64,000 nucleotides of DNA from contig DYJD01000002.1 in NCBI GenBank assembly GCA_020723325.1, positions 159,629-223,628 of the forward strand, written 5' to 3'. Positions 34,510 through 48,906 of this stretch are shown here, one piece after another. Within the stretch, counting starts at the first letter, position 1. The number at the start of each line of letters is the position of its first letter. A model generated the notes under the pieces. That model saw only the letters and a program-made list of their open reading frames with translations. It ran no database searches and was not told where the DNA came from. Source of the DNA: Desulfosudis oleivorans (lineage in GTDB: Bacteria > Desulfobacterota > Desulfobacteria > Desulfobacterales > SURF-7). Position numbers and translations under genes: made by a program.

Positions 34510-34720
34510 GGTGCTCTCCTTCCAGATAGCAGTGGCAAAAAAAATAATGGTATTGTTGACCATTTCATAATATTAAATAGTATACATGTCAACTTTGATA
34601 TTATCGTCCCCTCCTTCAATACGGTCCAAGAATATTGCAATCATTTAATATTAAAATAAATTAATCATATAATCGCCCAATCGTCATTTTTTTCTTGACA
34701 ATTTACAGGGGGCTGTTCTA

Positions 34721-34748
34721 TTGACAAAGTTAATAGTTATACTATTTA
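34721..34748 (+). promoter_or_regulatory. candidate sigma70-like promoter of the Rieske/Mo-enzyme operon
   Basis: TTGACA (34721-34726), 16-nt spacer, TATTTA (34743-34748), in an AT-rich 220-nt spacer. A second TTGACA lies at 34695-34700. Confidence 0.35.
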
Positions 34749-34782
34749 CTTTTTACACCGGCCTTTGCCAAAGGTGAAATGA

Positions 34783-35388
34783 ATGAAAAGTAAGGCAACC
34801 TGTAATTCAGCGGATTTTGAATCCCAGGATCTGATCCGGTCGGCGGTTCGATCCAATGCGGAGCTGGAACCTTCTGCCAGACGGGAGTTTCTGCATAAAT
34901 GCATCACCGTCGGTGGCTGGGGGGCCATGCTCCTGTGCACCGGGGCAGGCATGTATGAAACCGTTAAATTCTTTTTTCCGTCCGTGGTGTTTCAACCCCC
35001 CAGCCAGTTTAAAATCGGCTCCCCGGCCGACTTCACCAAGCCAGGTTCGCAGGACGCTTTCGGCGTGATCGCGGTGGATGACCGCTTCAAAACCGATCAC
35101 CGCTTTTTCATCATCCGGGAACCGGCCCGCATCTATGCCCTGTATGCCCGCTGCACCCACCTGGGCTGCACTATCAACTGGTTTCCCGGCATCCAAACCT
35201 TCAAATGCCCGTGCCACGGTAGCGAATTTCACTCCAATGGACGACAATTCGCCGGACCGGCTCCGCGGCCCCTGGACCGTTTAAGGATCAACCTGGATGC
35301 CCAAGGCAGCCTGGTGGTGGACACCCGCACGGTTTTTTCCGCCGCGGAATTTGAGGAAAAACAAATCTACATCAAGGTGACGACCTAG
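34783..35388 (+). CDS. Tat-dependent Rieske [2Fe-2S] subunit of a cytochrome bc/b6f-type complex
   Basis: Twin-arginine SARREFLHK followed by a TM helix. Rieske boxes CTHLGCTINW and CPCHGSEFHSNG. Confidence 0.9.
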   Translation: MKSKATCNSADFESQDLIRSAVRSNAELEPSARREFLHKCITVGGWGAMLLCTGAGMYETVKFFFPSVVFQPPSQFKIGSPADFTKPGSQDAFGVIAVDDRFKTDHRFFIIREPARIYALYARCTHLGCTINWFPGIQTFKCPCHGSEFHSNGRQFAGPAPRPLDRLRINLDAQGSLVVDTRTVFSAAEFEEKQIYIKVTT

Positions 35389-35685
35389 ATGCTGGCCCCA
35401 TCGGATCATAGTCAAAGGACCCGTTTGCGAAAAAGGCGCATTGCCCGGGTGACAGCAAGCTGCACTGGCTGTGCCGGCAGTCCCATTTGCCGGATTTTCT
35501 GCAGCCGGGCGGCTCTGACACTGGTGGATGACCCGGAAAATCATCCCTTTAAACGTATCCGGGTGGATTCATCCCGTTGTAACGGCTGCGGGAACTGTGC
35601 GGCCCGCGGACCGGGCAACACCCATCTAAGCGGATGTCCCTGGAATGCCATCCGCCTTGTTGCCATTGCGGAATTGAAAAATTAA
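35389..35685 (+). CDS. small 2x[4Fe-4S] ferredoxin-domain protein
   Basis: Its ATG abuts the Rieske TAG stop. It has CTGCAGSPICRIFC and CNGCGNC..(13)..CP cysteine patterns and a very basic N-terminus (RTRLRKRRIAR). Confidence 0.65.
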   Translation: MLAPSDHSQRTRLRKRRIARVTASCTGCAGSPICRIFCSRAALTLVDDPENHPFKRIRVDSSRCNGCGNCAARGPGNTHLSGCPWNAIRLVAIAELKN

Positions 35686-35704
35686 ACCAAATCAGGAGGG
35701 GGAA

Positions 35705-38638
35705 ATGGACCATTTTGCAGTGAACCGGCGGGACTTCCTGCGGATCAGCGGGGCCTCGGCCCTGATGCTTTCCTTGAACTCACTGGGTTTCCTCGGCGGG
35801 AACGCCCAGGCGGCTGAAAAAATATTGAATGAATGGGATTACGGGCGCTGGGAGGATCTGCACCGCAAGGAATGGACCTGGGACAAGGTCACCTTCGGCA
35901 CCCACCTGGTGGATTGCTATCCCGGCAATTGTTTGTGGCGGGTTTATTCCAAGGACGGAGTCGTCTTTCGCGAAGAACAGGCCGCCAAATACCCGGTGGT
36001 GGACCCCACCGGCCCGGATTTCAATCCCCGCGGCTGTCAGAAGGGCGCTTCCTACAGCCTGATGATGTACAATCCGGACCGCCTCAAATACCCCATGAAA
36101 CGGGTGGGCGAGCGCGGCTCCGGCAAATGGAAAAAAATCAGTTGGGACGAGGCCCTGGGTGAAATCGCCGAAGGCATTCTGGATGCCATGGAAAAGGAAG
36201 GGCCGGAATCCATCATCAATGAAAACGGGCCCGGCAACGGCGGTTATCTGCATATCATCGCCGTGCATCGCCTGGCCAAACTGCTGGGCGCTGTTTCCCT
36301 GGACACCAACACCACCATCGGTGATTTCAACCGCGGTGTTTATGAGACCATGGGCAAATTCCAATTCATGGATTCCGCCGACGGCTGGTTCTTCGGCAAA
36401 CTATTGCTCATCTGGCACATGAATCCGGTATACACCAGAATCCCGTGCTACCATTTCATTGCCGAAGCGCGTTACAACGGCGCCGAAGTCGTCACCATCG
36501 CGCCGGACTACTCCCCCAGCGCCATGCATGCCGATGAATGGGTGCCGGTGAACACCGGCGGCGACGCGGCCCTGGGGCTGGCCGTCTGCCAGGTGCTTAT
36601 TGAAAAAAATTGGCTGGATACGGCCTTTGTCAAGGAGCAGACCGATCTGCCTTTGTTGGTGCGCACGGACAATCAGCGATTCCTGCGGGCCGCGGACATG
36701 GAGGCGGACGGAAGAGACGATCAGTTTTACTACTGGGATACTGCCGGAAATAAACCGGTAAAGGCGCCCCTGGACACCTTGAAATTGCCCTGTGATCCGG
36801 CCCTTACCGGAACCCATGCGGTGACCCTGAAAAGCGGGGCCCAGATCAAGGTGCAGCCGAGCTTCAACGAGCTGAAAGAGTCACTGAACCGCGACTACCC
36901 GCCGGAAAAGGCCGCCAAGTTATGCGGCACCCATCCGGACACCATCCGGCGCTTGGCCCAGAAATGCGCCGAGGCCAAAGGCCATGTCCAGGTCATGGTG
37001 GGCTGGAATTCCCCCAAATACTACCATGGTGATCTCATCGAGCGCAGCATGTGCCTGGTGCTGGCCCTCACCGGCAGTTTCGGCAAAAAAGGCAGCGGCA
37101 TCCGCGGCTGGAACGAATCCCTTTTTGAAGGCGCCCTGCTCCAGATCATGAAACCCACCATCGGCAAAATGGCCACCATTCAACACCTGCCCAAGGACAA
37201 AAAAATCATGGCGGAGTTCAAGCGCAAGGACCCCACCCTCACCGATGAAATGCTTTCCATTCATCTGGAGCGGGAGCGCGATCGGCAGGAATTGAATTGG
37301 ACCGTGCCGAATTTTCTCTGGTATTTTCATTCCGATTACAAAATCGCCTGGGACCGTAGGGAATGGCATTGCCCCACCATGAAACGGGAATTCCCCCAAT
37401 ACATGCAGGAAGCCATCGACAAAGGCTGGTGGGACGGCTTTGTCAAACCGGCCAAGGATCAGAAACCCCTGGTCTATTTTTACATGGGCACCAATCCGGC
37501 CCGGAAAAACCGCGGCTGGAACAAAAACGTGCTGACCTCCCTGTGGCCCAAATTCAACCTCATCTTCGGCTTTGAGACCCGCTGGAGCACCACCCTCTTG
37601 TATTCGGACTATGCCCTGCCCGGCGCCGGCTTTTATGAAAAACTGGACACCCGCTTCCCCACCCCCCATGTGCCCTGGCTGACCTTAACGGATCAGGCGG
37701 TCAAACCCGTCGGCGAGTCCAAGCCCGAATGGGACATCGCCCGCCTGCTGGCGGAAAAAATCGAGGCGGCGGCCAAAAAGCGCGGGAAAACCGAATTCAA
37801 GCTGCGGGACGGCCGGGAAATCAGCCTGAAAAATTTCGGCCGGGTCCAGGCCATGGAAGCTGACAATTTTGAAGCCATCATGGAGGATGCCCTGGAATCC
37901 AGCGTCCTTTTGGGCAACCTGCCCAAGGGTACGGACCTGAACTTCATGCGCAAGGAAGGCATTGTCCGTTTTGTGGGGGTTTCGCCCTTTGACGCGGTGA
38001 GCATGAACCTGGCCACGGACATCAAGCCGGAAGAACCCATCGTGCCCCTCACCTGGCACACCGGCAAGAAGATTCCCTACCCCACTTACAACCGCCGGAT
38101 TCAATTTTACATCGACCATCCCTGGTTTGTGGAAGCCAAGGAGCAGTTGCCGGTTCACAAGCCCAATCCCAACATCGGCGGAAAATATCCCCTGACCATG
38201 ACCAGCGGGCACCAGCGCTGGAGCATTCATTCCATCTGGGTCACGGGCCAGCAACTGCTGCGCACCCACCAGGGCCGGCCTTTCATGTTCATGAATCCCG
38301 AGGACGCGGAAAAACGCGGGATCAAGAACGATGACTATGTCCATGTGTATAACGATTTCGATGATTTCTACATTCATGTGAAGCTGACCGCCTCAGCCAA
38401 ACCCGGCAAGGAGGCCCAGCCCGGCCAGGTGATTGTTTACCATGCCTGGGAACCCTTCATGTTCAAGAAATGGAAAAGCTACGACGCCGCCATTCCCGGC
38501 ATGATCAAATGGCTGGACCTGGCCGGCGGATACGGGCACCTTAATTATTGGCGCTGGAACTGGTGCCTGCAGCCGGTGGACCGCGCCATTGCAGTGGAGG
38601 TTGAAAAAATAAAGGAGAAAAACCATGAGCAACAATGA
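35705..38638 (+). CDS. Tat-exported bis-MGD molybdopterin oxidoreductase alpha subunit, type II DMSO-reductase family (ethylbenzene dehydrogenase/Nar-like)
   Basis: Tat signal NRRDFLRISGASALMLSL..AQA. FS0 motif H67-x3-C71-x4-C76-x34-C111 (THLVDCYPGNC..NPRGCQKGASYS). Candidate Mo-ligand Asp in TTIGDFNRG. 977 aa. WEDLHRKEWTWDKV, REEQAAKYP and QTDLPLLVR recall EbdA-type proteins. Confidence 0.9.
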   Translation: MDHFAVNRRDFLRISGASALMLSLNSLGFLGGNAQAAEKILNEWDYGRWEDLHRKEWTWDKVTFGTHLVDCYPGNCLWRVYSKDGVVFREEQAAKYPVVDPTGPDFNPRGCQKGASYSLMMYNPDRLKYPMKRVGERGSGKWKKISWDEALGEIAEGILDAMEKEGPESIINENGPGNGGYLHIIAVHRLAKLLGAVSLDTNTTIGDFNRGVYETMGKFQFMDSADGWFFGKLLLIWHMNPVYTRIPCYHFIAEARYNGAEVVTIAPDYSPSAMHADEWVPVNTGGDAALGLAVCQVLIEKNWLDTAFVKEQTDLPLLVRTDNQRFLRAADMEADGRDDQFYYWDTAGNKPVKAPLDTLKLPCDPALTGTHAVTLKSGAQIKVQPSFNELKESLNRDYPPEKAAKLCGTHPDTIRRLAQKCAEAKGHVQVMVGWNSPKYYHGDLIERSMCLVLALTGSFGKKGSGIRGWNESLFEGALLQIMKPTIGKMATIQHLPKDKKIMAEFKRKDPTLTDEMLSIHLERERDRQELNWTVPNFLWYFHSDYKIAWDRREWHCPTMKREFPQYMQEAIDKGWWDGFVKPAKDQKPLVYFYMGTNPARKNRGWNKNVLTSLWPKFNLIFGFETRWSTTLLYSDYALPGAGFYEKLDTRFPTPHVPWLTLTDQAVKPVGESKPEWDIARLLAEKIEAAAKKRGKTEFKLRDGREISLKNFGRVQAMEADNFEAIMEDALESSVLLGNLPKGTDLNFMRKEGIVRFVGVSPFDAVSMNLATDIKPEEPIVPLTWHTGKKIPYPTYNRRIQFYIDHPWFVEAKEQLPVHKPNPNIGGKYPLTMTSGHQRWSIHSIWVTGQQLLRTHQGRPFMFMNPEDAEKRGIKNDDYVHVYNDFDDFYIHVKLTASAKPGKEAQPGQVIVYHAWEPFMFKKWKSYDAAIPGMIKWLDLAGGYGHLNYWRWNWCLQPVDRAIAVEVEKIKEKNHEQQ

Positions 38639-39302
38639 TCAAAGCCAGCAAATAACCGCATCCAAGCTGTCGGCCTCCCGCAAGGAGCTGCTGGACCTTG
38701 GCGCCGCGGCCTGGACCAGACTGAAAAGCTTGCGGGTCGAAACCACCGCCACCCCCCTGGCCAACCAGCCATCGCCATACATCAAGGCCACCTTTGATGA
38801 AAAAGTCATCGGCGCTGTCAAGGAATTACAGGTAAAAGCTGTCCATAACGGCCAGGACATTTTCTTTTATTTTGAATGGGGCAGTGAAAATCCGAATTAC
38901 ACCATCGGCGATGTGGGCACTTTTCCCGACGGTGTGGCTCTGTTGCTGCCGTTTAAAGGGCCGGATCAGACCCCCATCAAGGAGATGGGGTCAAAGGATT
39001 TTGCCACCAACAGTTGGTATTGGCGCCCGGATTTTGAGGAAAAGCCCAAGAACCAGATCGCCCACGGCCTTTCCACCAGCCTGTACACCCAGGAGACCTC
39101 CCTGGTTTCCGTTTCCAAATGGGAAAAAGGAACCTGGCGGGTGGTGCTGGCGCGGCCTTTAACGGTCAAGGAAGAAGCCGTTAATCTCACCCCCGGCACG
39201 GAAACCGCCATCGGATTTGCGGTCTGGGAAGGCGGCAACGGCGAGCGGGGCGGCGTGAAAGCCTTTAGCAAGGAATGGCGCAAACTGATGCTGGAGGCCT
39301 GA
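38625..39302 (+). CDS. heme b-binding gamma subunit (EB_dh / EbdC-SerC-DdhC family)
   Basis: 225 aa. LQVKAVHNGQDIFFYFEW, DGVALLLPF and AIGFAVWEG.NGERGG.KA are typical of the ethylbenzene-dehydrogenase gamma fold. It overlaps the alpha stop by 14 nt. Confidence 0.8.
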   Translation: MSNNDQSQQITASKLSASRKELLDLGAAAWTRLKSLRVETTATPLANQPSPYIKATFDEKVIGAVKELQVKAVHNGQDIFFYFEWGSENPNYTIGDVGTFPDGVALLLPFKGPDQTPIKEMGSKDFATNSWYWRPDFEEKPKNQIAHGLSTSLYTQETSLVSVSKWEKGTWRVVLARPLTVKEEAVNLTPGTETAIGFAVWEGGNGERGGVKAFSKEWRKLMLEA

Positions 39303-39336
39303 TTCCGATTTGCATTCATATCAAAGGAGAGGACAT

Positions 39337-40470
39337 ATGCCGGTTGATCAAAAACAGTTGACGGATCGCGAGAAAGAATTGGCCAATGAATTGCAGGCTG
39401 TAAAAGACAGGTTGCGGACCTGTAAAAAGCAGGTGGCCATGGTCATGGATCTGAATAAATGCATCGGCTGCCAGCTCTGCTCCATGGCCTGCAAAACCCT
39501 CTGGACCCAGATCGAGGGCCGGGAGTACATGTGGTGGAACAAGGTGAACACCCAGCCGGGCAAGGGTTCCCCCAAGGACTGGGAAAGGATGGGCGGGGGT
39601 TACAAGGTGCTCTTCGGCGGCAAGGTGCGTGATCCGGTGCGCGGCCAACTGCCCACCCGCACGGATTTCGGGGACAACTGGAAATTCAATTTCGAAGAAG
39701 TCTTTGCTTCCAAGGCCGGGGGCAAGCATCTCGTGGCCAGCAACCCGGACGGCTCCGCGCCCAACTGGGCCATGAACTGGGACGAGGACCAGGGCGGCGG
39801 CAAATATCCCAATGCCTTTTATTTTTATCTGCCGCGGATCTGCAACCACTGCTCCTACCCGGCCTGTGTGGACGCCTGCCCGCGCAATGCCCTGTACAAA
39901 AGGGATTCCGACGGCGCGGTGGTGGTGGACCAGGAGCGCTGCAAGGGCTACCGCTTCTGTCTGGAAGCCTGTCCCTATAAGGTCATCTACTTCAACTTCA
40001 TCAAAAAAACCAGCATGAAATGTATTTTCTGCTACCCCCGGTTGGAAGAAAAAGTGGCCAATGCCTGTGCGCGCCAATGCACCGGCCGGGTGCGTTTTGT
40101 GGGGTTTTTGGATGACAAGGCCGGCATCATTCACAAACTCGTCAATGTCTGGAAAGTGGCCCTGCCCCTTCATCCGGAATACGGCACCGAACCCAACGTC
40201 TATTATGTTCCGCCCCTTTCGCCGCCCGCCCTGGATGAGCAAGGCCGCATCGATCCTCAAAAAGAACGCATTCCCATGGCCTACCTGCGTTTCCTGTTCG
40301 GTCCGGAAGTGGAGGGCGCCTTGCGCACCCTCAAGCAGGAACTGGAAAAAGTGCGCAAGGGCGGCAAATCCGAATTGATGGAAATCTTGATCGCCCGGGA
40401 ATGGAAGGCCATGTTCGGGCCGTTTGCCGCCGATCCGGCCCAATTGCAGCGCGCCCCCAGCAAAGGATGA
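39337..40470 (+). CDS. four-cluster Fe-S beta subunit (NarH/EbdB-like)
   Basis: ATG 39337 after AAAGGAGAGG. Motifs: CIGCQLCSMACK, CNHCSYPACVDACP, CKGYRFCLEACPYKV and CIFCYPRLE..CARQC. Confidence 0.9.
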   Translation: MPVDQKQLTDREKELANELQAVKDRLRTCKKQVAMVMDLNKCIGCQLCSMACKTLWTQIEGREYMWWNKVNTQPGKGSPKDWERMGGGYKVLFGGKVRDPVRGQLPTRTDFGDNWKFNFEEVFASKAGGKHLVASNPDGSAPNWAMNWDEDQGGGKYPNAFYFYLPRICNHCSYPACVDACPRNALYKRDSDGAVVVDQERCKGYRFCLEACPYKVIYFNFIKKTSMKCIFCYPRLEEKVANACARQCTGRVRFVGFLDDKAGIIHKLVNVWKVALPLHPEYGTEPNVYYVPPLSPPALDEQGRIDPQKERIPMAYLRFLFGPEVEGALRTLKQELEKVRKGGKSELMEILIAREWKAMFGPFAADPAQLQRAPSKG

Positions 40471-40474
40471 GTCC

Positions 40475-41182
40475 ATGGAAGCCATTATCAGTGAACAATT
40501 GCAGAACCATTTTGAAATCGCCACGGCCAACCGCAGCCGCATGTATGCCGTCATCGCCGAGATCTTCCGGTATCCGGCTGCGGATTTCCGCAAGCAGGCC
40601 CGCAACGGCGACCTGGAACAAGCTCTGCGCCGCCTCACCGACAACCTGCCCTATCCTTTTGAATGGAGCGAGACGGAAAAAAAGAACCTGCGCGCCGTTG
40701 CCCGGGTCCCGGATGAGGACCTGGAGGTGGAATTCATCCGCCTGTTCGAAGCCGGTCCTGGTCAGCCGCCCCTGCCCTTGCTGGAAGGACTGTTCCGGGA
40801 AGACCGCCAGGCGATTTTCAAGGAACTCATCCTGTTCTACAACCATTTCGGCCTGAGCTATGCCGAGGGCAGCATGGAAGACCGGCCCGACCATCTTTGC
40901 TACCAGGTGGAATTCCTGCATTTCCTGGTTTTCAAGGAACTCAAGGCCTTGCAGGCCGGCCGTGACCAAGGCCCCTATCTGCGAGCCCAAAAGGATTTTC
41001 TGGAACGCCATCCCCTGCCCTGGCTGGACCTGCTGCTGGCCAAAGTCAGTCAGATGGAACAAAAACTCCCGCCACCGGAAGAAGCCTGCCTGGAAGTGTT
41101 CCACTTCTATGCAGCCCTGCTTTCACTAACACACCGGTTTTTACATGCGGAAGGACGGTATCTTGGGGGATGCGGGATATGA
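40475..41182 (+). CDS. TorD/NarJ-family redox-enzyme maturation chaperone (delta subunit)
   Basis: Motifs RSRMYAVIAEIFRYP, EVEFIRLFE.GPG and PDHLCYQVEFLHFL are DmsD/NarJ-like. The start lies 4 nt after the beta stop. Its last codons and stop fall inside a heptamer array. Confidence 0.75.
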   Translation: MEAIISEQLQNHFEIATANRSRMYAVIAEIFRYPAADFRKQARNGDLEQALRRLTDNLPYPFEWSETEKKNLRAVARVPDEDLEVEFIRLFEAGPGQPPLPLLEGLFREDRQAIFKELILFYNHFGLSYAEGSMEDRPDHLCYQVEFLHFLVFKELKALQAGRDQGPYLRAQKDFLERHPLPWLDLLLAKVSQMEQKLPPPEEACLEVFHFYAALLSLTHRFLHAEGRYLGGCGI

Positions 41183-41210
41183 GATATACGATATGGGATG
41201 TGGGATAAGG
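41169..41210 (+). repeat. six phase-exact GAT-heptamers forming the delta/cytochrome b intercistronic spacer
   Basis: GATGCGG GATATGA GATATAC GATATGG GATGTGG GATAAGG, with GAT at 41169 and every 7 nt thereafter. The TGA stop of the chaperone gene is at 41180-41182. GATAAGGAAAAG sits just upstream of the ATG at 41222. Confidence 0.85.
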
Positions 41211-41221
41211 AAAAGACCTGA

Positions 41222-41968
41222 ATGAAACTAACCGACACCCAAATCTGGCGGTCCATATTCCGCCACCGTTTCAAAGATACGGAGCGCAACCGTTCCCTGA
41301 CGATTTCCTCCAATGTCTTTTTGCACCTGCATCCGGTGACCATTCCGGCAAAAGCGGCCCGGGTGCGCTTCACCTTCTGCCTGGGGGGGCTTACCTTTCT
41401 CATGTTCATAGTGGAGACGGTCACCGGCGTTTTGTTGATGTTTTACTACCGCCCCCTCCCGGAATACGCCTATGTGGACATAAAACTCATGGAGCACACC
41501 GTGCGCTTCGGACTTTTGCTGCGCAACATGCATCGCTGGGCGGCCCATGCCATGGTGATGCTGGTGATGCTGCACATGTTGCGGGTATTTTTGACCGGTT
41601 CCTATAAACCCCCGCGGGAGTTCAACTGGGTGGTGGGCGTGCTCCTGCTGGTGACCACCTTTCTGCTCAGCTTCACGGGCTACCTGCTCCCCTGGGACCA
41701 GCTCGCCTTCTGGGCCATCACCGTAGGATCAAAAATGGCGGCGGCCACGCCGTTTTTCGGGGTGGAGGGACCTTTTCATGAATGGCTGGGAATTCACAGT
41801 CAAAACGACATGAAATTTCTGCTGCTGGGTGACAGCGAAGTGGGCGGCAATGCCTTGCTGCGCTTCTATGTGTTGCATTGCGTGCTGCTGCCCCTGGGCT
41901 GCGCCTTGCTGATGCTGGTGCATTTCTGGCGCGTGCGCAAGGACGGGGGCATATCGCGGCCGTTGTGA
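41222..41968 (+). CDS. cytochrome b (b6-like, N-terminal four-helix subunit)
   Basis: [57 protein letters not shown] and [28 protein letters not shown]. The four heme-ligating His residues have the expected spacing. Confidence 0.9.
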
Positions 41969-41985
41969 GATAATTGCTTAAAACT

Positions 41986-42013
41986 CAGGAGTCAGGAGTC
42001 AGAAGATAGGAGA
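41986..42013 (+). repeat. CAGGAGT-type heptamer array supplying the Shine-Dalgarno of the subunit IV gene
   Basis: CAGGAGT CAGGAGT CAGAAGA TAGGAGA. The last unit (AGGAGA) ends 6 nt before the TTG start at 42020. Confidence 0.85.
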
Positions 42014-42019
42014 CCACTG

Positions 42020-42751
42020 TTGAACGAGCTGAAAACCATCGATGAACTCGAAAAAGACAAGACGGGCGAACAGGAGCTTTTCGCCTTTCCGGAGCTGGTG
42101 TTCAAGGAATTTCTAGCCATCCTGGCGGCCATGATCGTCCTGGGCCTATGGTCACTACTGATGGATGCACCATTAAAGGAAGTCGCCGATCCCAACTGGA
42201 CGGAAAACCCGGCCAAGGCCCCCTGGTATTTTGTCGGTCTCCAGGAAGTTTTGGTGTATTTCGATCCCTGGATCGCCGGTGTCTGTCTGCCCCTCTTGAT
42301 CATCCTGGGCCTTGCGGCTTTGCCCTACATGGATCCCAATCCCCAAGGGGTCGGCAAGTATGGGTTCCGGGGACGCCGTCTGGCCATATCCGTTTTTCTG
42401 AGCGGCTATATCTTCTGGTTTGCCCTGATTCTCATCGGCCAGTTCCTGCGCGGCCCGAGCTGGCATTTTTACTGGCCCTGGGAAGACTGGTCGATTGTGA
42501 AGGCGGCGGAGCCGGCCTTGACCAACCTGCCCAACCCCCTGGGCCTCGCGCTGATTGCCGGGTATTTGGGTTTGGGGATAGCGGTTACAGCCCGGACGGC
42601 ACGCCGGCGGCGGCTGGGGCGATCCGCTCAAATCAAATTCATTTGCGCCTGGATATTGATCCTGCTCATGTTCGGGGTCATGGGCAAAATGGCTTTGCGG
42701 ATTTTTTTGCATATTAAGTATATTGTATCAACCCCTTATTTTTCGATTTGA
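42020..42751 (+). CDS. cytochrome b C-terminal / b6f subunit IV-like protein (extended)
   Basis: TTG start. PNWTENPAKAPWYFVGLQEVLVYF is the PEWY-region equivalent. It has extra C-terminal TM helices. Confidence 0.8.
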   Translation: MNELKTIDELEKDKTGEQELFAFPELVFKEFLAILAAMIVLGLWSLLMDAPLKEVADPNWTENPAKAPWYFVGLQEVLVYFDPWIAGVCLPLLIILGLAALPYMDPNPQGVGKYGFRGRRLAISVFLSGYIFWFALILIGQFLRGPSWHFYWPWEDWSIVKAAEPALTNLPNPLGLALIAGYLGLGIAVTARTARRRRLGRSAQIKFICAWILILLMFGVMGKMALRIFLHIKYIVSTPYFSI

Positions 42752-42757
42752 CACGCC

Positions 42758-45004
42758 ATGGCCTTGATCCGCTCCAAATTTTCCCAACGCATGGTCTTCC
42801 TATCCTTTGCCGGTCTGTTGCTGCTCCTGACCCTGGCCGCCATTAAATCCGAAGACACCCCGGGCTGGAAAGCAATCCAGGAAACCTATCAGCGGCATTA
42901 TCAAACCAAAATTTTGGAACAGGCCCGGGCCGCCGAGGCTGCCGGGAATTCCGCTGATCTGGCCAAGTGGCAACTGCTTTTGCGCGAAAACCAAGCCGGC
43001 CGGACCGGCGAAATCCGCCAGATTTTTCTGCCGGATGCAGGGGTGCGCGACCTTTGCGGCACCTGCCATTTGGCCATGGAAAATCCGCTTTTCAAAGACT
43101 CCCCGAATCCTTTGCGGGCCCACCCCCCTGACCTGCTGAAGCACCATCCCCTGAATCGCTTTGGATGCAGCCTCTGCCATCACGGCCAGGGGACCGCCCT
43201 TTCCGCTGATAAAGCCCATGGCTTTGAAAAAAACTGGCCCAAGCCCCGGGTGCCGCTGAAATTTGTCCAGGGTCTGTGCTTCGGCTGCCATGCCAGCGCC
43301 TTTGGACTCAGCGGCGCGGAAAAAGCGGCTGAAGGCGAGGGCCTTTTTGTGGACCATGGCTGCTACGGCTGCCATTCAACCCCGGCCACGGACAAACTGC
43401 CAGCCATGGCCACCCCCCTTGACAATATCGGCGCCAAGGTTCAAACCCCGGCCTGGCTGTTCCATTGGATTCAAGATCCGGCTTCCATCCGGCCGCGGAC
43501 ACGCATGCCGGCTTTTCAATTGGAACCCGCCGCGGCCCGGCACATCACGGCCTTTCTGGTCACTCAGCAACAATCCGCCACTGCAGCGTCAACCGGAAAC
43601 CCCGGTCAAGGGAAAAAGTCACAAGGTCAATCCCTGTTTACGGAAAAAGGCTGTATCGCCTGCCACGCGGTTGCGCCGGAACAGGCCGCCCTTACCGACC
43701 GGGTGCCCAATCTTGCGGATGCGGGTTTGAAGCTGAGCCCCCAATGGACCGCTGCCTGGCTGGCCAAGCCTGCCGGGCTCATCCCCCGCACCTCCATGCC
43801 GCGCGTGCCCCTTTCAGACGAGGAGATCGCTCACCTGGGTGCTTATCTGGTCAGCCTACAGGCCCGGTCCGTGGCGGATAAACTGAGCAACACAGGAACC
43901 GACGACCCGGCCGGCGGCGATGCGGCCGAAGGGAAAAAATTGATTCAGGTTTTCGGCTGCTATGGCTGTCATCCCATTGAAGCCCTTGCCGATCCGCCCA
44001 AGGTCGGCCTGGAAGTGGCCGCCGTGGCCCGCAAACGACTGGAAGAGCTGCCCTTCGGCCACAATACCAGCGTGCCCCGTACCAAATGGGATTGGCTGCT
44101 GGCCAAGATCAAGCAACCGGATCTTTTCAAGACCGAAGACATGCCCCTGCGGATGCCTAATTATTTGCGCCCATTGGTGTTCAATGAAGCCCAGGCCGAG
44201 GCCTTGACGGTTTTTTATCTGAATCAAGGTGCCAATCTGCCTGAAAACTACCATCACAAACCCCGGCAAGAAACCGCGGTCAATATGCAAGGCAGCTTTT
44301 TGACGACCCATTACAACTGCCTGGGCTGCCATCAACTTGCCGAAGAGCAAAAACCCCGGATCGCCGAACATCTGGCCTTGAAATCCATGATTCCGCCCCG
44401 TCTTATCGGCGAAGGCCAGCGGGTCCAGCCCCAGTGGTTCTTCCAATTCCTGAGCCGTCCCGGGGAAATGCGGCCCTGGCTGAAAATGCGCATGCCGGAA
44501 TTCGCCTTTACCTATGCTGAAAAAACCGCATTGATCGACTATTTTATCTGGCAGTCCGCTGCTCCGGGAAAGGACCGGCCCGAGGCCCCTTACGTACTGC
44601 TGCCGGTGCAGAGCGATTTTGAGGCGGAAAGCCTGCAAATGGGCGAATATCGCCTGGTCACGGATAAATGCATGCAGTGTCATCCGGTCAACCAGGAGGC
44701 CGCTTTGCCCCAGGATGTGAAGGTGGAGGACTTGTCCATCAACCTCATGCTGGCCAAATCCCGGTTGCGGTTTGAATGGATCAAGAACTTCCTGCGGAAT
44801 CCGGATCAATATTCCGGCAAGGACACCAAAATGCCCTTTGTTTACTACACCCCGGACAAGGTGCCGCGCATTCCCGACCCGGAGATGTGGATCGAATACA
44901 CCGCCCGCTTCCTGATGTTCATGGACCGGACACCTGAAATCAAACAAGCCAAACAGGTGGAAGCGCTTCGCCCGGGCAGCGAAGTGGATTGGACGAGTTA
45001 TTGA
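42758..45004 (+). CDS. membrane-anchored octaheme c-type cytochrome
   Basis: N-terminal TM helix MVFLSFAGLLLLLTLAAI. Eight CxxCH motifs: CGTCH, CSLCH, CFGCH, CYGCH, CIACH, CYGCH, CLGCH and CMQCH. Confidence 0.85.
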   Translation: MALIRSKFSQRMVFLSFAGLLLLLTLAAIKSEDTPGWKAIQETYQRHYQTKILEQARAAEAAGNSADLAKWQLLLRENQAGRTGEIRQIFLPDAGVRDLCGTCHLAMENPLFKDSPNPLRAHPPDLLKHHPLNRFGCSLCHHGQGTALSADKAHGFEKNWPKPRVPLKFVQGLCFGCHASAFGLSGAEKAAEGEGLFVDHGCYGCHSTPATDKLPAMATPLDNIGAKVQTPAWLFHWIQDPASIRPRTRMPAFQLEPAAARHITAFLVTQQQSATAASTGNPGQGKKSQGQSLFTEKGCIACHAVAPEQAALTDRVPNLADAGLKLSPQWTAAWLAKPAGLIPRTSMPRVPLSDEEIAHLGAYLVSLQARSVADKLSNTGTDDPAGGDAAEGKKLIQVFGCYGCHPIEALADPPKVGLEVAAVARKRLEELPFGHNTSVPRTKWDWLLAKIKQPDLFKTEDMPLRMPNYLRPLVFNEAQAEALTVFYLNQGANLPENYHHKPRQETAVNMQGSFLTTHYNCLGCHQLAEEQKPRIAEHLALKSMIPPRLIGEGQRVQPQWFFQFLSRPGEMRPWLKMRMPEFAFTYAEKTALIDYFIWQSAAPGKDRPEAPYVLLPVQSDFEAESLQMGEYRLVTDKCMQCHPVNQEAALPQDVKVEDLSINLMLAKSRLRFEWIKNFLRNPDQYSGKDTKMPFVYYTPDKVPRIPDPEMWIEYTARFLMFMDRTPEIKQAKQVEALRPGSEVDWTSY

Positions 45005-45012
45005 TGTTGTTT

Positions 45013-45058
45013 TATTGGTCCTATTAGTCTTATTGGTCCTATTGGTTCAAACCAATAG
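45013..45058 (+). repeat. nonamer array (TATTGGTCC x4 variants) ending in a hairpin
   Basis: TATTGGTCC TATTAGTCT TATTGGTCC TATTGGTTC (45013-45048). TATTGG (45040-45045) pairs with CCAATA (45052-45057). Confidence 0.8.
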
Positions 45059-47734: not shown

Positions 47735-48763
47735 ATGTTAAAGACCATTAAAACCGAAGAGGCTGTGGGCCACATCCTGGCCCACGATATCACTGAGATC
47801 AGGCCCGGGGAATTCAAGGGCCGCGCTTTTCAAAAAGGACATCGCATTTGTGAAGAGGACCTTTGCCATTTGCAGCGGCTGGGCAAACGGCATATTTATG
47901 TCATTGACCGGACCGACGACTACCTGCATGAAGACGACGCCGTGAAGCTCATGGCCCAGGCCTTTTGCGGCCATGGCGTGGGCTGGCACGGGGAGCCGGT
48001 GGAGGGCAAACTGAAACTGTGCGCCCTGGCAGACGGTCTGCTTACAGTGGACATCAGGGCCTTGACCTGCGTCAACCTTTTGGGGGAAGTCATGTGCGCC
48101 AGCCGGCACAATCATACGGTGGTCCAAAAGGGGGCCGTGGTGGCCGCCACCCGGGCCATCCCCCTCCTGGTTCAAAAAGAAATCGTGGAAAAAGCCGTGG
48201 CCGCCGCCCATGATTGTCCTGAAGGAATTCTCAGTGTCAAGCCTTTGCGCAAAGCCCGGGTGGGCATCTTGATCACCGGCAGTGAAATTGCCGCAGGTCT
48301 CATCGAGGATCGTTTTGAAGGCATCCTGCGCCAAAAATTGAAGCGCCTGGGTTCCCAGGTCTTGCGGGTGGAAATCGCCACGGACGACGCGGCCCTCATT
48401 TGCAAAAAACTCTTGTCCTATTTGGAGGACGGCCTGGATTTGATTCTGACCACGGGCGGCATGTCCGTGGATCCGGACGACGTCACCCGCACGGCGGTTC
48501 AGCAGGCTGGGGGCCGTGATGTCCTGTACGGCGCGCCCATCCTGCCCGGTGCCATGTTCATGCTGGCCCACATCGGCCCTGTGCCTGTGCTGGGCGTGCC
48601 GGCCTGCGGCATCTACCATCAAACCACCATCCTGGATCTCCTGCTGCCGCGGATTCTGGCCGGGGATACCATTACCAGGGCGGATCTGGCGGTAATGGGC
48701 CACGGCGGGCTGTGCCTGGACTGCCCGGAGTGTCGTTATCCGGTTTGCCCCTTCGGCAAATAG
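47735..48763 (+). CDS. MoeA-like molybdopterin-binding (MoCF_biosynth domain) protein with C-terminal Cys cluster
   Basis: VGILITGSEI..LILTTGGMSVDPDDVT is the MoaB/MogA/MoeA-type MPT-binding fold. C-terminal CLDCPECRYPVCPFGK. Confidence 0.65.
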   Translation: MLKTIKTEEAVGHILAHDITEIRPGEFKGRAFQKGHRICEEDLCHLQRLGKRHIYVIDRTDDYLHEDDAVKLMAQAFCGHGVGWHGEPVEGKLKLCALADGLLTVDIRALTCVNLLGEVMCASRHNHTVVQKGAVVAATRAIPLLVQKEIVEKAVAAAHDCPEGILSVKPLRKARVGILITGSEIAAGLIEDRFEGILRQKLKRLGSQVLRVEIATDDAALICKKLLSYLEDGLDLILTTGGMSVDPDDVTRTAVQQAGGRDVLYGAPILPGAMFMLAHIGPVPVLGVPACGIYHQTTILDLLLPRILAGDTITRADLAVMGHGGLCLDCPECRYPVCPFGK

Positions 48764-48823
48764 CCCGGCTATTCTGTTTGACGAAAACCCTTGTTTCTGG
48801 AATAACAGGAACTGAATTGGCCT

Positions 48824-48893
48824 TAATCATCGCTACGGCCGCATCGCGGCTGGAAGCCGCTCCCACAACCGGGGGGGATCAAGGCCACCAAAT
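48824..48893 (+). repeat. REP-like module (CGGCCGCATCGCGGCTGGAAGCCGCTCCCAC)
   Basis: The core at 48836-48866 is identical to 50883-50908 and to the reverse complement of 51291-51316. The flanks align with the reverse complement of 51266-51340. Confidence 0.8.
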
Positions 48894-48906
48894 CATACTG
48901 CTTGCC

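What the first reader, a model, noticed from the sequence alone, without database searches (positions are those of the whole stretch)
34783..45004. EBDH/Nar-type periplasmic molybdoenzyme genes embedded inside a complete Rieske/cytochrome b complex with an octaheme cytochrome c
Nine co-directional genes are packed tightly: a TAG-ATG abutment at 35388/35389, a 14-nt overlap at 38625-38638, and other gaps of about 5-50 nt. In order they encode a Tat-Rieske protein (CTHLGC..CPCHGS) and a 98-aa 2x[4Fe-4S]-type protein. Next is a Tat-signal (NRRDFL) 977-aa bis-MGD alpha subunit with FS0 motif H67-x3-C71-x4-C76-x34-C111 and a candidate Mo-ligand Asp207. Then come an EB_dh-type heme b gamma, a NarH/EbdB-type four-cluster beta and a TorD/NarJ-type chaperone. 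The last three are a b6-like cytochrome b with four His ligands, a subunit IV-like protein, and a TM-anchored cytochrome with eight CxxCH motifs. From memory, the alpha N-terminus (WEDLHRKEWTWDKV, REEQAAKYP, QTDLPLLVR) resembles ethylbenzene-dehydrogenase-clade hydroxylases more than NarG. As far as I know, characterised type II enzymes (Ebd, Ser, Clr, Ddh, Pcr) are stand-alone alpha-beta-gamma(-delta) operons that exchange electrons with soluble cytochromes c. Here the enzyme genes sit physically between the Rieske gene and the cytochrome b gene of a bc-type complex. Two readings seem possible. (i) A dedicated supercomplex drives electrons from a relatively high-potential periplasmic substrate oxidation (hydrocarbon, sterol or alkyl hydroxylation) uphill into the menaquinone pool through a pmf-driven reversed Rieske/cyt b complex, which would solve the redox mismatch for a low-potential respirer. 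(ii) A quinol-oxidising bc module feeds an oxyanion reductase. An EBDH-like complex has been proposed in the literature for alkane activation in Desulfococcus oleovorans. Whether this locus is that complex or a homologue, and whether the bc linkage has been described, I cannot verify.
Basis: partly seen in the sequence, partly recalled or inferred. Interest (0 to 1): 0.85.

Follow-up and report, generated by a model that had tools for sequence, protein, structure and literature searches.

The report
Alkane-hydroxylase-type molybdoenzyme wired to Rieske/cytochrome b
This is the counterpart, in an uncultured sulfate-reducer-type bacterium, of the putative oxygen-independent alkane hydroxylase locus of Desulfococcus oleovorans Hxd3, and its conserved linkage to a private Rieske/cytochrome b6/octaheme complex suggests how electrons from such a high-potential enzyme could reach the quinone pool.

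Summary
Nine tightly packed co-directional genes at 34783-45004 encode a Tat-Rieske protein, a small 2x[4Fe-4S] protein, a type II Mo-bisMGD alpha/gamma/beta/delta set, a b6-type cytochrome b, a subunit-IV-like protein and a membrane-anchored octaheme cytochrome c. A tenth co-conserved gene (beta-helix protein, 45083-47662) and Moco/MerR genes follow.

The locus is not an orphan. It is syntenic, gene for gene, with Dole_0194 (AhyA, WP_012173623.1) and its neighbours in D. oleovorans Hxd3. Alpha identity is 70.7%, against 39.8% to EbdA, 36.6% to ClrA and 34.7% to haloarchaeal NarG. The same gene set occurs in 16 other loci. In other lineages it occurs in at least three other gene orders, which argues for functional coupling.

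Supporting features are a conserved Met/Lys-ligated gamma heme (+256 mV in EbDH), an S-F type Rieske motif, the heme-ci cysteine and eight invariant CxxCH motifs. The best reading is substrate hydroxylation feeding electrons through the octaheme and Rieske proteins into a reverse-operating b6-type complex that reduces menaquinone. The direction of flow is inferred, not shown.

The claim that type II enzymes are always stand-alone is wrong: haloarchaeal Rieske/cyt b-NarGH operons are a published precedent. I rate this a new member of a known kind. The bc linkage is under-described in the papers I could search.

The parts
34645..34673 (+). sigma-70-like promoter candidate upstream of the Rieske gene (TTAATA-17-TATAAT)
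   Evidence: Consensus scan only, 10 of 12 matches. It lies in an AT-rich gap bracketed by a 29-nt inverted repeat at 34569-34597 / 34725-34753. Not evidence of function.
34783..35388 (+). Rieske [2Fe-2S] protein, 201 aa, with a Tat-type RR anchor
   Evidence: Pfam PF00355; closest NCBIfam families are b6f PetC-type, below their cut-offs. Motifs CTHLGC and CPCHGSEF. The 'S-F' pair is conserved in 19 of 20 orthologues, with S-Y in one. That pair correlates with about 200-230 mV in PMC3509893.
35389..35685 (+). 98-aa 2x[4Fe-4S]-type ferredoxin-like protein with no signal peptide or TM helix (presumed cytoplasmic)
   Evidence: Pfam Fer4_7. Eight conserved Cys: CxxCx5Cx3C ... CxxCxxCx12-13CP. Found by tblastn in 15 of the 16 other syntenic loci. 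In L039, L044, L045 and L056 it lies between the Rieske and cyt b genes, so it belongs to the Rieske/cyt b module.
35705..38638 (+). Mo-bisMGD catalytic alpha subunit, 977 aa, Tat signal, AhyA-type
   Evidence: Pfam PF00384 + PF01568. EbdA 2ivf_A is the best solved relative at 732 bits, full length. Identity: 70.7% to Hxd3 AhyA, 39.8% to EbdA. In a 100%-bootstrap clade with AhyA_Hxd3 and OQX63933.1. D207 and K438 align with EbdA D223 and K450. EbdA H192 is Pro here.
38625..39302 (+). heme b gamma subunit (EB_dh family), 225 aa, no signal peptide
   Evidence: Pfam PF09459 at 119.7 bits. Best PDB hit is 2ivf_C, E 5e-27. M121 and K212 align with the EbdC heme ligands M108 and K201.
39337..40470 (+). 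iron-sulfur beta subunit, 377 aa (ORF opens at TTG 39310)
   Evidence: TIGR03478 DMSO_red_II_bet at 500.4 bits, above the 480.7 cut-off. Cys groups 42/45/48/52, 169/172/177/181, 202/208/212 and 229/232/244/248 fit three [4Fe-4S] plus one [3Fe-4S].
40475..41182 (+). NarJ/TorD-type assembly chaperone (delta), 235 aa (ORF opens at TTG 40424)
   Evidence: Pfam PF02613 at 67 bits. TIGR03482 at 144.9 bits, just under its 152.3 cut-off.
41222..41968 (+). b6-type cytochrome b, 248 aa, four TM helices, with the heme-ci cysteine
   Evidence: Pfam PF00033. PDB cytochrome b6 163 bits against bc1 cyt b 86 bits; the His ligands align. FCLGG is invariant in orthologues. NCBIfam ExtP 276.6 bits, cut-off 290.
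42020..42751 (+). subunit IV-like membrane protein, 243 aa, about five TM helices, Qo-motif variant APWY
   Evidence: NCBIfam ExtQ, E 4.7e-12. All four PDB hits are b6f subunit IV (E 0.4-1.3), with PEWY aligned to APWY. AKAPWYFVGLQ is invariant in the 17 syntenic loci, the window included. TM scan. A profile search gave only a weak hit to the C-terminal half of cyt b.
42758..45004 (+). membrane-anchored octaheme cytochrome c, 748 aa
   Evidence: Eight CxxCH at 100, 137, 174, 202, 299, 401, 521 and 638, conserved in number and spacing in every orthologue. One N-terminal TM helix. The first four motifs give only sub-threshold multiheme hits; class I cytochrome c hits begin at residue 288.
45083..47662 (+). 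co-conserved secreted beta-helix / NosD-like protein, 859 aa, role unknown
   Evidence: Pfam Beta_helix and NosD. N-terminal hydrophobic helix. Present directly after the octaheme gene in Hxd3 and in most syntenic loci.
47735..50855 (+). accessory genes: MoCF_biosynth-domain protein, MerR-family regulator and MoeA (molybdenum cofactor supply, probable regulation)
   Evidence: Pfam. Hxd3 has MoeA downstream and MerR x2, MoaA-like, TatA and FmdE genes upstream of its locus.

Best explanation
The region is the orthologue of the ahy locus of Desulfococcus (Desulfosudis) oleovorans Hxd3, which the literature proposes encodes an oxygen-independent alkane C2-methylene hydroxylase.

Shown here: the genes encode a periplasmic, Tat-exported Mo-bisMGD enzyme of the EBDH type (alpha, Fe-S beta, heme b gamma, delta chaperone). 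Beside it sits a dedicated membrane module made of a Rieske protein, a small cytoplasmic 2x[4Fe-4S] protein, a b6-type cytochrome b with the heme-ci cysteine, a subunit-IV-like protein and a membrane-anchored octaheme cytochrome c. The two modules stay linked across many genomes despite gene-order changes.

Inferred:
1. The Mo enzyme hydroxylates an unactivated aliphatic C-H bond with water. The substrate is probably an n-alkane or a related alkyl chain.
2. The two electrons leave through the Fe-S chain and the Met/Lys-ligated, presumably high-potential gamma heme.
3. They pass to the octaheme cytochrome c and then to the Rieske cluster.
4. The b6-type complex runs its Q cycle backwards, at the expense of proton-motive force, so that menaquinone is reduced. 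Alternatively, the second electron comes from the module's own ferredoxin through heme ci.

This would let an organism without a high-potential electron acceptor re-oxidise a hydroxylase that otherwise needs one.
For: Identity of the locus:
- Hxd3 CP000859.1:200524-223505 has the same order: Rieske, Fer4, alpha (993 aa, WP_012173623.1/ABW66004.1), EB_dh, beta, delta, cyt b, a 247-aa protein, a 743-aa multiheme protein, beta-helix, MoeA.
- Alpha identity to AhyA is 70.7%, and the shared clade has 100% bootstrap support.
- AhyABC is described as a putative alkane hydroxylase and reported as implicated by alkane-grown-cell proteomics (PMC3653055, PMC7803848).

Coupling of the two modules:
- The full set from Rieske to octaheme is present in 16 other fetched loci, one of them a second Hxd3-derived contig.
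- The same genes occur in other orders. L039: alpha-gamma-beta-delta-Rieske-Fdx-cyt b-suIV-octaheme-beta-helix. L044, Binatia: Rieske/cyt b module, then gamma-beta-delta. P0260 contig: three alphas, then the Rieske/cyt b module. L056: Rieske/cyt b module, then alpha.
- More distant Rieske/cyt b loci (cyt b 52-64% identical) lack the ferredoxin gene and mostly lack Mo genes nearby.

Direction of electron flow:
- The alpha subunit lies in the hydroxylase group.
- The gamma heme ligands Met and Lys are conserved. In EbDH that heme is +256 mV, Mo(VI/V) is +259 mV, the ethylbenzene/1-phenylethanol couple is +30 mV, and only high-potential acceptors work (PMC8840923).
- The Rieske motif is S-F or S-Y, correlating with 200-350 mV, rather than the 120-160 mV types that PMC3509893 lists for A-Y, G-Y and G-F motifs.
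- The nearest relatives are Desulfobacterales/Thermodesulfobacteriota MAGs.
- From established values, recalled rather than checked here: menaquinone about -74 mV, APS/sulfite -60 mV, sulfite/sulfide -116 mV. All lie below the substrate couple, so an energy input is needed.
Against: - Nothing here is experimental. The direction of catalysis of a type II Mo enzyme cannot be read from sequence, and the family mixes reductases and dehydrogenases.
- The alkane hydroxylase activity of AhyABC has itself never been shown with purified enzyme in the papers I could read. The proteomic evidence is cited from a meeting abstract.
- The one published precedent for a Rieske/cyt b + type II enzyme operon, haloarchaeal pNar, is proposed to run forward, from quinol to reductase.
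- AhyA-type alphas lack EbdA His192, which is Pro here, so the chemistry may differ from EbDH.
- The Qo motif is APWY, not PEWY.
- L045 carries the Rieske/Fdx/b6/octaheme module with no Mo gene within about 3.5 kb upstream or 6.9 kb downstream.
- Orphan alpha paralogues occur away from any Rieske/cyt b genes.
- The Rieske potential is predicted from a two-residue correlation only.
Confidence: 0.55

Rival explanations
1. Forward operation. Menaquinol is oxidised by the Rieske/b6 complex, and electrons flow through the octaheme cytochrome and the gamma heme into the Mo enzyme, which reduces a periplasmic acceptor such as an oxyanion. This would be analogous to the haloarchaeal Rieske/cyt b-pNar chain. 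The low-potential branch might then reduce the small ferredoxin.
For: - Published precedent and the same operon logic in Haloferax mediterranei pHME322: Rieske-cyt b-narG-narH-EB_dh-TorD (PMC3509893).
- Metagenomic loci L080 and L117 place related Rieske/cyt b genes beside Nar-like alpha and beta genes.
- Forward quinol oxidation is the normal mode of Rieske/cyt b complexes.
- Type II enzymes with the same cofactor set work as reductases (ClrABDC; PcrA).
Against: - The alpha subunit groups with EbdA, apart from ClrA and pNarG, with 100% bootstrap, and scores 732 bits to EbdA against 471 to PcrA and 191 to NarG.
- Its closest named relative is the AhyA of an alkane-degrading sulfate reducer that lacks alkylsuccinate synthase.
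- No chlorite dismutase or comparable detoxifying partner lies in the cluster, unlike the clr locus.
- The tree lacks SerA, DdhA, S25dA and CmdA, so placement among all subgroups is incomplete.
Confidence: 0.2
2. The Mo enzyme is a hydroxylase or dehydrogenase and is coupled to the Rieske/b6 module as proposed, but its substrate is not an n-alkane. It could be an isoprenoid or steroid side chain, an alkyl-aromatic, or another alkyl compound.
For: - Related genomes carry several alpha paralogues that apparently share one beta/gamma set (L020, L040, L041, the P0260 contig). From memory, this pattern is known for steroid C25 dehydrogenases.
- In L040 the orphan alphas sit beside thiolase, ChsH2-type, MaoC and acyl-CoA dehydrogenase genes.
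- No alkane-pathway gene, such as a ketone carboxylase, was found in the 64-kb window.
- The source organism is an uncultured MAG.
Against: The window alpha is in the same well-supported clade and the same synteny as the Hxd3 protein, and Hxd3 grows on alkanes. ahyA-type amplicons co-occurred with 2-acetylalkanoate metabolites in one oil-reservoir sample (PMC7803848).
Confidence: 0.2
3. The adjacency is circumstantial. The Rieske/b6/octaheme complex is a general respiratory complex of these bacteria, and the Mo enzyme hands its electrons to some other carrier.
For: - Rieske/cyt b/multiheme loci of the wider family mostly stand alone.
- L045 has the module without nearby Mo genes.
- A weak hairpin and repeats follow the octaheme gene.
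Against: - The Mo genes lie between the Rieske/ferredoxin genes and the cyt b gene, with gaps of 0-51 nt, and no strong terminator-like hairpin falls in any gap between the nine genes.
- Linkage survives at least four different gene orders and spans several phyla.
- The ferredoxin-containing subfamily of the module is the one that travels with EBDH-type genes.
Confidence: 0.05

Closest known systems
[quoted passage not shown]
   Same: Identical gene content and order from the Rieske gene to the beta-helix gene, with MoeA and MerR genes nearby. Alpha is 70.7% identical and shares a 100%-bootstrap clade. The Rieske S-F motif, FCLGG, APWY and eight CxxCH motifs are all shared.
   Different: A different lineage: the nearest MAGs are 91-92% identical in alpha, Hxd3 only 70.7%. 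The alpha is shorter (977 against 993 aa) and so is the ferredoxin (98 against 121 aa). The flanking regulators are arranged differently. The papers I could search name only AhyABC and do not discuss the Rieske/cyt b genes.
Ethylbenzene dehydrogenase EbdABCD of Aromatoleum aromaticum (PDB 2IVF)
   Same: Same subunit types and cofactor motifs: Tat alpha with the His/Cys3 FS0 motif, an Asp Mo ligand, a Lys equivalent to K450, a four-cluster beta, a Met/Lys heme b gamma, and a delta chaperone.
   Different: Only 39.8% alpha identity. NCBIfam EbdA/B/C/D equivalog cut-offs are not reached. Gene order is alpha-gamma-beta-delta. His192 and His194 are replaced by Pro and Asn. From memory, EbDH is a soluble enzyme of a denitrifier, encoded without Rieske/cyt b genes and thought to reduce a soluble cytochrome c.
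Haloarchaeal Rieske/cyt b-pNar operon (e.g. Haloferax mediterranei pHME322)
   Same: A Rieske/cytochrome b complex is encoded in one cluster with a Tat-exported type II Mo enzyme, an EB_dh-family heme b subunit and a TorD-type chaperone (PMC3509893). This is the published precedent for the architecture.
   Different: - The alpha is a nitrate reductase, 34.7% identical and outside the hydroxylase group.
- The cytochrome b is unsplit (485 aa).
- There is no c-type cytochrome and no ferredoxin gene.
- The Rieske motif is of the low-potential type.
- Electron flow is proposed from quinol to nitrate.
b6f-like 'green-type' Rieske/cyt b complexes of Geobacter, Planctomycetes and Acidobacteria (group A2 of Baymann et al. 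2012; NCBIfam ExtP/ExtQ of the Geobacter ext operon)
   Same: Split cytochrome b (b6 + subunit IV-like), the heme-ci cysteine and a multiheme cytochrome c partner. D. oleovorans sequences are listed in group A2.
   Different: ExtP and ExtQ cut-offs are not reached (276.6 against 290 bits; 46 against 150 bits). This subfamily carries an extra ferredoxin gene and travels with EBDH-type genes.
Reverse-operating bc1 complex of Acidithiobacillus ferrooxidans (petI operon); recalled from memory, not checked here
   Same: The proposed principle is the same: a proton-motive-force-driven uphill transfer of electrons from a high-potential periplasmic donor, through cytochrome c and Rieske, into the quinone pool.
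   Different: That complex is a classical proteobacterial bc1 with ubiquinone, and its donor is Fe(II) via cytochromes and rusticyanin. There is no Mo enzyme, no b6-type split, no heme ci and no ferredoxin.

Membership tests
DMSO reductase family, type II (Nar/EBDH-type) enzyme | Tat signal on the alpha subunit and the N-terminal FS0 motif H-x3-C-x(3-4)-C-x(n)-C | tested here: met
   NRRDFL; H67, C71, C76 and C111. The motif aligns with the EbdA FS0 region.
DMSO reductase family, type II (Nar/EBDH-type) enzyme | Aspartate ligand to Mo | tested here: met
   D207 aligns with EbdA D223. The column is Asp in all 47 aligned sequences, including ClrA and pNarG.
DMSO reductase family, type II (Nar/EBDH-type) enzyme | Curated family models for alpha, beta, gamma and delta (TIGR03479, TIGR03478, TIGR03477, TIGR03482) | tested here: inconclusive
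   Beta is above its cut-off (500.4 > 480.7). Alpha (921.6 < 984.75), gamma (132.3 < 169.85) and delta (144.9 < 152.3) each hit that model best but fall just below the cut-off.
Ethylbenzene dehydrogenase EbdABCD (equivalog) | NCBIfam equivalog scores for EbdA, EbdB, EbdC and EbdD | tested here: not met
   790 against 2000, 453 against 740, 119 against 400 and 110 against 360 bits. Alpha identity is 39.8%.
Ethylbenzene dehydrogenase EbdABCD (equivalog) | Active-site His192 (its role recalled from the EbDH literature, not checked here) | tested here: not met
   Pro176 in the window, and Pro in all 21 AhyA-clade sequences.
AhyABC-type putative anaerobic alkane hydroxylase (D. oleovorans Hxd3) | Alpha subunit in the clade of WP_012173623.1 and OQX63933.1, distinct from EbdA | tested here: met
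   70.7% and 72.1% identity. A 21-sequence clade has 100/100 bootstrap support, and EbdA lies outside it. The tree is NJ, without S25dA or CmdA references.
AhyABC-type putative anaerobic alkane hydroxylase (D. oleovorans Hxd3) | Same gene neighbourhood as Dole_0194 in Hxd3 | tested here: met
   Ten-gene synteny with CP000859.1:200524-223505.
AhyABC-type putative anaerobic alkane hydroxylase (D. oleovorans Hxd3) | Alkane-dependent expression and alkane C2 hydroxylation activity | not testable with these tools
   Needs culture, proteomics or enzyme assays. In the literature this rests on a meeting abstract and on metabolite patterns.
Rieske/cytochrome b complex, b6f-like type | Rieske cluster-binding boxes CxHxGC and CxCHxS | tested here: met
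   CTHLGC and CPCHGS; Pfam Rieske.
Rieske/cytochrome b complex, b6f-like type | Four-helix cytochrome b6 with four His heme ligands and the CxGG cysteine for heme ci | tested here: met
   Full-length alignment to cytochrome b6 (7r0w_I, 163 bits) with the His positions and YCLGG/FCLGG aligned. Invariant in orthologues. Actual heme ci binding cannot be tested here.
Rieske/cytochrome b complex, b6f-like type | Separate subunit IV carrying the Qo-site PEWY motif | tested here: inconclusive
   - The gene position is right.
- NCBIfam ExtQ matches at E 4.7e-12.
- The only PDB hits are b6f subunit IV, at E 0.4-1.3.
- The motif is APWY, not PEWY, and there are about five TM helices, not three.
- The profile search is weak.
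- The AF2 model is unusable.
Haloarchaeal-type Rieske/cyt b-pNar respiratory cluster | Alpha subunit is a NarG-clade nitrate reductase | tested here: not met
   34.7% identity to H. mediterranei NarG, which served as the tree's outgroup; ClrA also falls outside the group holding EbdA and the window in 100/100 bootstraps.
Geobacter Ext operon Rieske/cyt b (ExtP, ExtQ, ExtS) | NCBIfam equivalog cut-offs | tested here: not met
   ExtP 276.6 < 290, ExtQ 46.3 < 150, ExtS 40.3 < 100.

The most novel reading that the evidence does not exclude
The Rieske / ferredoxin / b6 / subunit-IV-like / octaheme module is a distinct, widely distributed bioenergetic device dedicated to EBDH-type hydroxylases. I saw it in Desulfobacterota, Abyssubacteria, Binatia and unclassified lineages. 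Together with the Mo enzyme it would form a 'hydroxylase:menaquinone oxidoreductase' supercomplex. That complex would lift electrons from a roughly +250 mV heme b to menaquinone in one of two ways. One is a proton-motive-force-driven reverse Q cycle. The other is electron confurcation at the Qo site: one electron from the high-potential Rieske cluster, and one low-potential electron delivered from the cytoplasm by the module's own 2x[4Fe-4S] protein through heme ci and the b hemes. This would explain how strict anaerobes without high-potential acceptors can use oxygen-independent C-H hydroxylation.
Probability: 0.3. Interest if true: 0.85.

Novelty: new member of a known kind. Interest (0 to 1): 0.55.

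Why it matters
Oxygen-independent hydroxylation of hydrocarbons by EBDH-type enzymes needs an acceptor near +250 mV (PMC8840923). How a sulfate reducer, whose respiratory chain works below 0 mV, could use such an enzyme is an unresolved objection to the proposed 'hydroxylation' route of anaerobic alkane degradation.

This locus and its relatives show that the putative alkane hydroxylase genes always travel with a private Rieske/b6/octaheme complex that has unusual features: an S-F/S-Y Rieske motif, the heme-ci cysteine and its own ferredoxin. That turns the objection into a concrete, testable electron-transfer scheme.

It also matters for metagenomic surveys, in which ahyA is used as a marker gene. 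The Rieske/cyt b genes give an independent synteny criterion for telling genuine ahy-type loci from orphan alpha paralogues.

Tried and rejected
- Literature. None found an open-access paper that links ahy genes with Rieske/cyt b genes. The reviews most likely to mention the link (Heider et al. 2016, 10.1159/000441357; Rabus et al. 2016, 10.1159/000443997; Pereira et al. 2011) are not held, so prior description cannot be excluded. From memory, 'Dole_0194-0200' has been quoted as the EBDH-like complex. By position that range would run from alpha to the octaheme gene.
- Structure. A single-sequence AlphaFold2 model of the subunit-IV-like protein was unusable (pLDDT 52.3, pTM 0.30), so no fold search was run. 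A profile of 17 orthologues against the PDB gave only a weak hit to the C-terminal half of cytochrome b (E 0.037).
- Octaheme cytochrome. Its only PDB sequence hit was a cytochrome c domain of a caa3 subunit II (E 7e-4), which is not informative.
- Regulation. No sigma-54 consensus lies upstream of the operon, and window-wide matches were fewer than chance expectation.
- RNA. No Rfam family and no tRNA were found in the window.
- Pathway genes. I looked in the 64-kb window for downstream alkane-pathway genes such as a ketone carboxylase or a secondary alcohol dehydrogenase cluster and found none.
- Orphan alphas. I considered whether the loci with an alpha but no neighbours were masked or truncated. 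There are no N runs, so they are real orphan paralogues in varied contexts.
- Rejected idea. The ferredoxin does not belong to the Mo enzyme: in four other arrangements it sits between the Rieske and cyt b genes.

Full report
**1.

- The + strand between 34783 and 45004 carries nine ORFs with the stated coordinates.
- TAG 35386-35388 abuts ATG 35389. The alpha and gamma genes overlap by 14 nt (38625-38638).
- The remaining gaps are 4-51 nt once beta is started at ATG 39337 and delta at ATG 40475. Both have purine-rich ribosome-binding runs. The purely mechanical ORFs open at TTG 39310 and TTG 40424.
  - CTHLGC and CPCHGS in a 201-aa protein with an RR anchor.
  - NRRDFL and H67-x3-C71-x4-C76-x34-C111 in the 977-aa alpha.
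  - Eight CxxCH motifs in the 748-aa protein.
- Family searches give:
  - Rieske, Fer4_7, Molybdopterin + Molydop_binding, EB_dh and Nitrate_red_del.
  - Fer4_11 / TIGR03478, at 500 bits, above its cut-off.
  - Cytochrome_B, with cytochrome b6 as the closest solved relative (163 bits against 86 for bc1 cytochrome b).
Asp207 aligns with the EbdA Mo ligand Asp223.
- Beta has the Cys pattern for three [4Fe-4S] clusters plus one [3Fe-4S] cluster.
- The 243-aa protein is the least certain part:
  - It has no Pfam hit.
  - It matches NCBIfam ExtQ at E 4.7e-12.
  - Its only PDB hits are b6f subunit IV, and they are weak. They align the PEWY motif to an invariant APWY.

**2. What the locus is**

- The window's alpha and cytochrome b are identical to proteins from an NCBI metagenome-assembled contig of 398 kb (P0199, P0201). 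The nearest relatives (91-92% alpha identity) are Thermodesulfobacteriota/Desulfobacterales MAGs.
- Cluster look-up shows that the published AhyA of Desulfococcus (Desulfosudis) oleovorans Hxd3 is a 70.7%-identical homologue. That protein is WP_012173623.1 / ABW66004.1. The second published reference, OQX63933.1, is 72.1% identical. My alignment reproduces the published 84.7% identity between those two references.
- The Hxd3 chromosome (CP000859.1:200524-223505) has exactly the same gene order. It runs Rieske, Fer4, alpha, EB_dh gamma, beta, delta, cytochrome b, a 247-aa protein, a 743-aa multiheme cytochrome, a beta-helix protein and MoeA.
- In an NJ tree with 100 bootstraps, the window alpha sits in a 100%-supported 21-sequence clade with both AhyA references.
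  - EbdA, together with a Rugosibacter sequence, lies outside that clade.
  - The group holding EbdA and the window separates from chlorate reductase ClrA and haloarchaeal NarG in 100% of replicates.
  - PDB scores tell the same story: EbdA 732 bits, PcrA 471, NarG 191, NxrA 138.
- The locus is therefore an orthologue of the Hxd3 ahy locus. It is not EbdABCD itself:
  - The NCBIfam equivalog cut-offs are missed by a wide margin.
  - The gene order is alpha-gamma-beta-delta.
  - The AhyA clade carries an invariant E-x-G-P-G-N-G-G where EbdA has D-A-P-His192-V-His194-A-G.

**3. The linkage to the Rieske/cytochrome b module is conserved and modular**

- tblastn of the window proteins against fetched loci finds the full set, from Rieske to octaheme, in 16 other loci. 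One of them is a second Hxd3-derived contig. In 15 of the 16 the ferredoxin gene is also found, and most have the beta-helix gene.
- The same genes also occur in other orders:
  - L039, a complete 3.4-Mb genome with 58% alpha identity: alpha-gamma-beta-delta-Rieske-Fdx-cyt b-suIV-octaheme-beta-helix.
  - L044, a Binatia contig: Rieske-Fdx-cyt b-suIV-octaheme, then two unrelated genes, then gamma-beta-delta.
  - A 254-kb contig carrying P0260: three tandem alphas, then Rieske, a 128-aa protein, cyt b, suIV and the octaheme protein.
  - L056: the Rieske/cyt b module, then an alpha.
  - L043, an Abyssubacteria contig: the window's order.
- Linkage that survives such rearrangements across phyla is strong comparative evidence for a functional unit. 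It also assigns the small ferredoxin to the Rieske/cyt b module, because elsewhere it lies between the Rieske and cyt b genes.
- The wider cytochrome b family behaves differently. At 52-64% cyt b identity (80 metagenomic loci), tblastn found no ferredoxin gene. The complexes are mostly stand-alone Rieske/cyt b/multiheme loci. Only 4 of the 15 loci with at least 6 kb of flank on both sides have any Mo-type gene nearby.
- Exceptions exist:
  - L045 has the ferredoxin-containing module without Mo genes in the available flanks.
  - Several genomes carry orphan alpha paralogues far from any beta, gamma or Rieske/cyt b gene.

**4. Features that bear on the mechanism**

- The gamma subunit keeps the unusual Met/Lys heme ligands of EbdC (M121 and K212). 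PMC8840923 reports these values for EbDH:
  - That heme is +256 mV.
  - Mo(VI/V) is +259 mV.
  - The substrate couple is +30 mV.
  - Only high-potential acceptors work.
- The Rieske box II reads CPCHGSEF. The S-F pair is conserved in 19 of 20 orthologues, and S-Y appears in other arrangements. Baymann et al. correlate S-F with 200-230 mV and S-Y with 300-350 mV, against 120-160 mV for the A-Y, G-Y and G-F motifs.
- The cytochrome b has the four His ligands and the CxGG cysteine that binds heme ci in b6f complexes.
- The octaheme protein has one N-terminal anchor helix. Its first four heme motifs are closely spaced. The last four are more widely spaced, and class I cytochrome c Pfam hits begin at the fifth.
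- The ferredoxin has no export signal, so it is presumably cytoplasmic.
- The gamma subunit has no signal peptide, so it probably rides out with the Tat-exported alpha.

**5. Most likely mechanism**

- Shown: the parts list and the conserved linkage.
- Inferred:
  - The periplasmic Mo enzyme hydroxylates an aliphatic C-H bond.
  - Electrons leave via the high-potential gamma heme to the octaheme cytochrome and the Rieske cluster.
  - The b6-type complex then works in reverse, so that menaquinone is reduced.
- The thermodynamic need follows from the +30 mV couple measured for the EbDH reaction, set against standard values recalled from memory. Those values are menaquinone at about -74 mV, APS/sulfite at -60 mV and sulfite/sulfide at -116 mV.
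- A pmf-driven reverse Q cycle is thermodynamically adequate. From memory, it has a precedent in Acidithiobacillus ferrooxidans.
- The module-specific ferredoxin and the heme-ci cysteine permit a second, more novel variant. In it, the second electron needed at the Qo site arrives from the cytoplasmic side (confurcation).
- Confidence by level:
  - About 0.9 that this is an ahy orthologue.
  - About 0.75 that the two modules work together.
  - About 0.55 for the stated direction of electron flow.

**6. Rivals**

- Forward operation, with quinol feeding a periplasmic reductase, has a real precedent. Haloferax mediterranei pHME322 encodes Rieske-cyt b-NarG-NarH-EB_dh-TorD. The literature proposes that this Rieske/cyt b complex feeds the periplasmic nitrate reductase. 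Two metagenomic loci also pair related Rieske/cyt b genes with Nar-like subunits.
- The substrate may not be an alkane. This too gets about 0.2. It is compatible with the same wiring, so these figures are not meant to sum to one.
- Pure coincidence of adjacency is unlikely (0.05).

**7. Novelty**

- The Mo-enzyme part is known and named, and ahyA is already used as a metagenomic marker.
- D. oleovorans Rieske/cyt b sequences appear in a published phylogeny (group A2), with no mention of their context.
- In the searchable open-access literature I found no description of the ahy-Rieske/cyt b linkage. The subscription reviews most likely to mention it are not held, so prior description cannot be excluded.
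- The window is therefore a new member of a known kind. The cross-phylum, order-independent linkage and the module's ferredoxin are the parts that may be new.

Noticed in passing
window 45083-47662 (+): An 859-aa secreted right-handed beta-helix / NosD-like protein directly follows the octaheme gene. It is co-conserved in Hxd3 and in most syntenic loci, with 1031-aa versions in L039 and L043. Its role is unknown; it could handle substrate at the cell surface or help assembly.
   Followed up: partly
window 47735-50855 (+): A MoCF_biosynth-domain gene, a MerR-family regulator and MoeA lie directly downstream. Hxd3 has MoeA downstream and two MerR genes, a MoaA-like gene, TatA and FmdE upstream of its locus. 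This suggests a self-contained cofactor, export and regulation island.
   Followed up: partly
window 33825-34064: A 34-nt inverted repeat (91% complementary) at 33825-33858 / 34031-34064 encloses 172 nt with a central palindrome (33921-33948). It lies in the low-GC gap upstream of the operon. There is no Rfam match. It could be a small mobile-element remnant or a structured element.
   Followed up: no
window 34569-34753: A 29-nt inverted repeat (79%) at 34569-34597 / 34725-34753 brackets the AT-rich promoter-like region just upstream of the Rieske start codon. It may be a regulator binding site; a MerR-type regulator is encoded nearby.
   Followed up: no
window 45009-45063: Three overlapping 18-nt direct repeats with 9-nt spacing and a 14-nt hairpin followed by a T-rich run lie between the octaheme and beta-helix genes. 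This may be a partial terminator or a processing site.
   Followed up: no
L007, L008, L012, L016, L018-L021, L040; also L020, L041 and the P0260 contig: AhyA-like alpha paralogues (62-75% identical) occur without beta or gamma genes, sometimes in tandem. Some sit in the same MAG as a complete locus (L007 with L023; L008 with L004). This suggests several catalytic subunits share one beta/gamma/Rieske-b6 set. In L040 the neighbours are thiolase, ChsH2-like, MaoC and acyl-CoA dehydrogenase genes.
   Followed up: partly
L080 and L117 (metagenome contigs): More distant Rieske/cyt b/suIV loci (cyt b 53-57% identical) lie next to Nar-like alpha (25-28%) and beta (32-37%) genes; L080 also carries a multiheme gene. 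Rieske/cyt b-molybdoenzyme gene linkage therefore recurs outside haloarchaea and outside the ahy type.
   Followed up: no
window alpha residues 173-180 and 206-209 (35705-38638): AhyA-type alphas, their sister clade and most of a Chloroflexi-type group share E-x-G-P-G-N-G-G and G-D-F-N where EbdA has D-A-P-H192-V-H194-A-G and G-D223-T-Y. This is a clade signature next to the Mo site and could serve as a diagnostic motif.
   Followed up: partly
window 51955-55612 (+): A 7TMR-DISM hybrid histidine kinase/response regulator (938 aa) and a TusA-DsrE fusion protein follow the Moco genes. A DUF4213/DUF364 protein lies at 7195-8007 (-), and the same domain pair occurs upstream of the Hxd3 locus.
   Followed up: no
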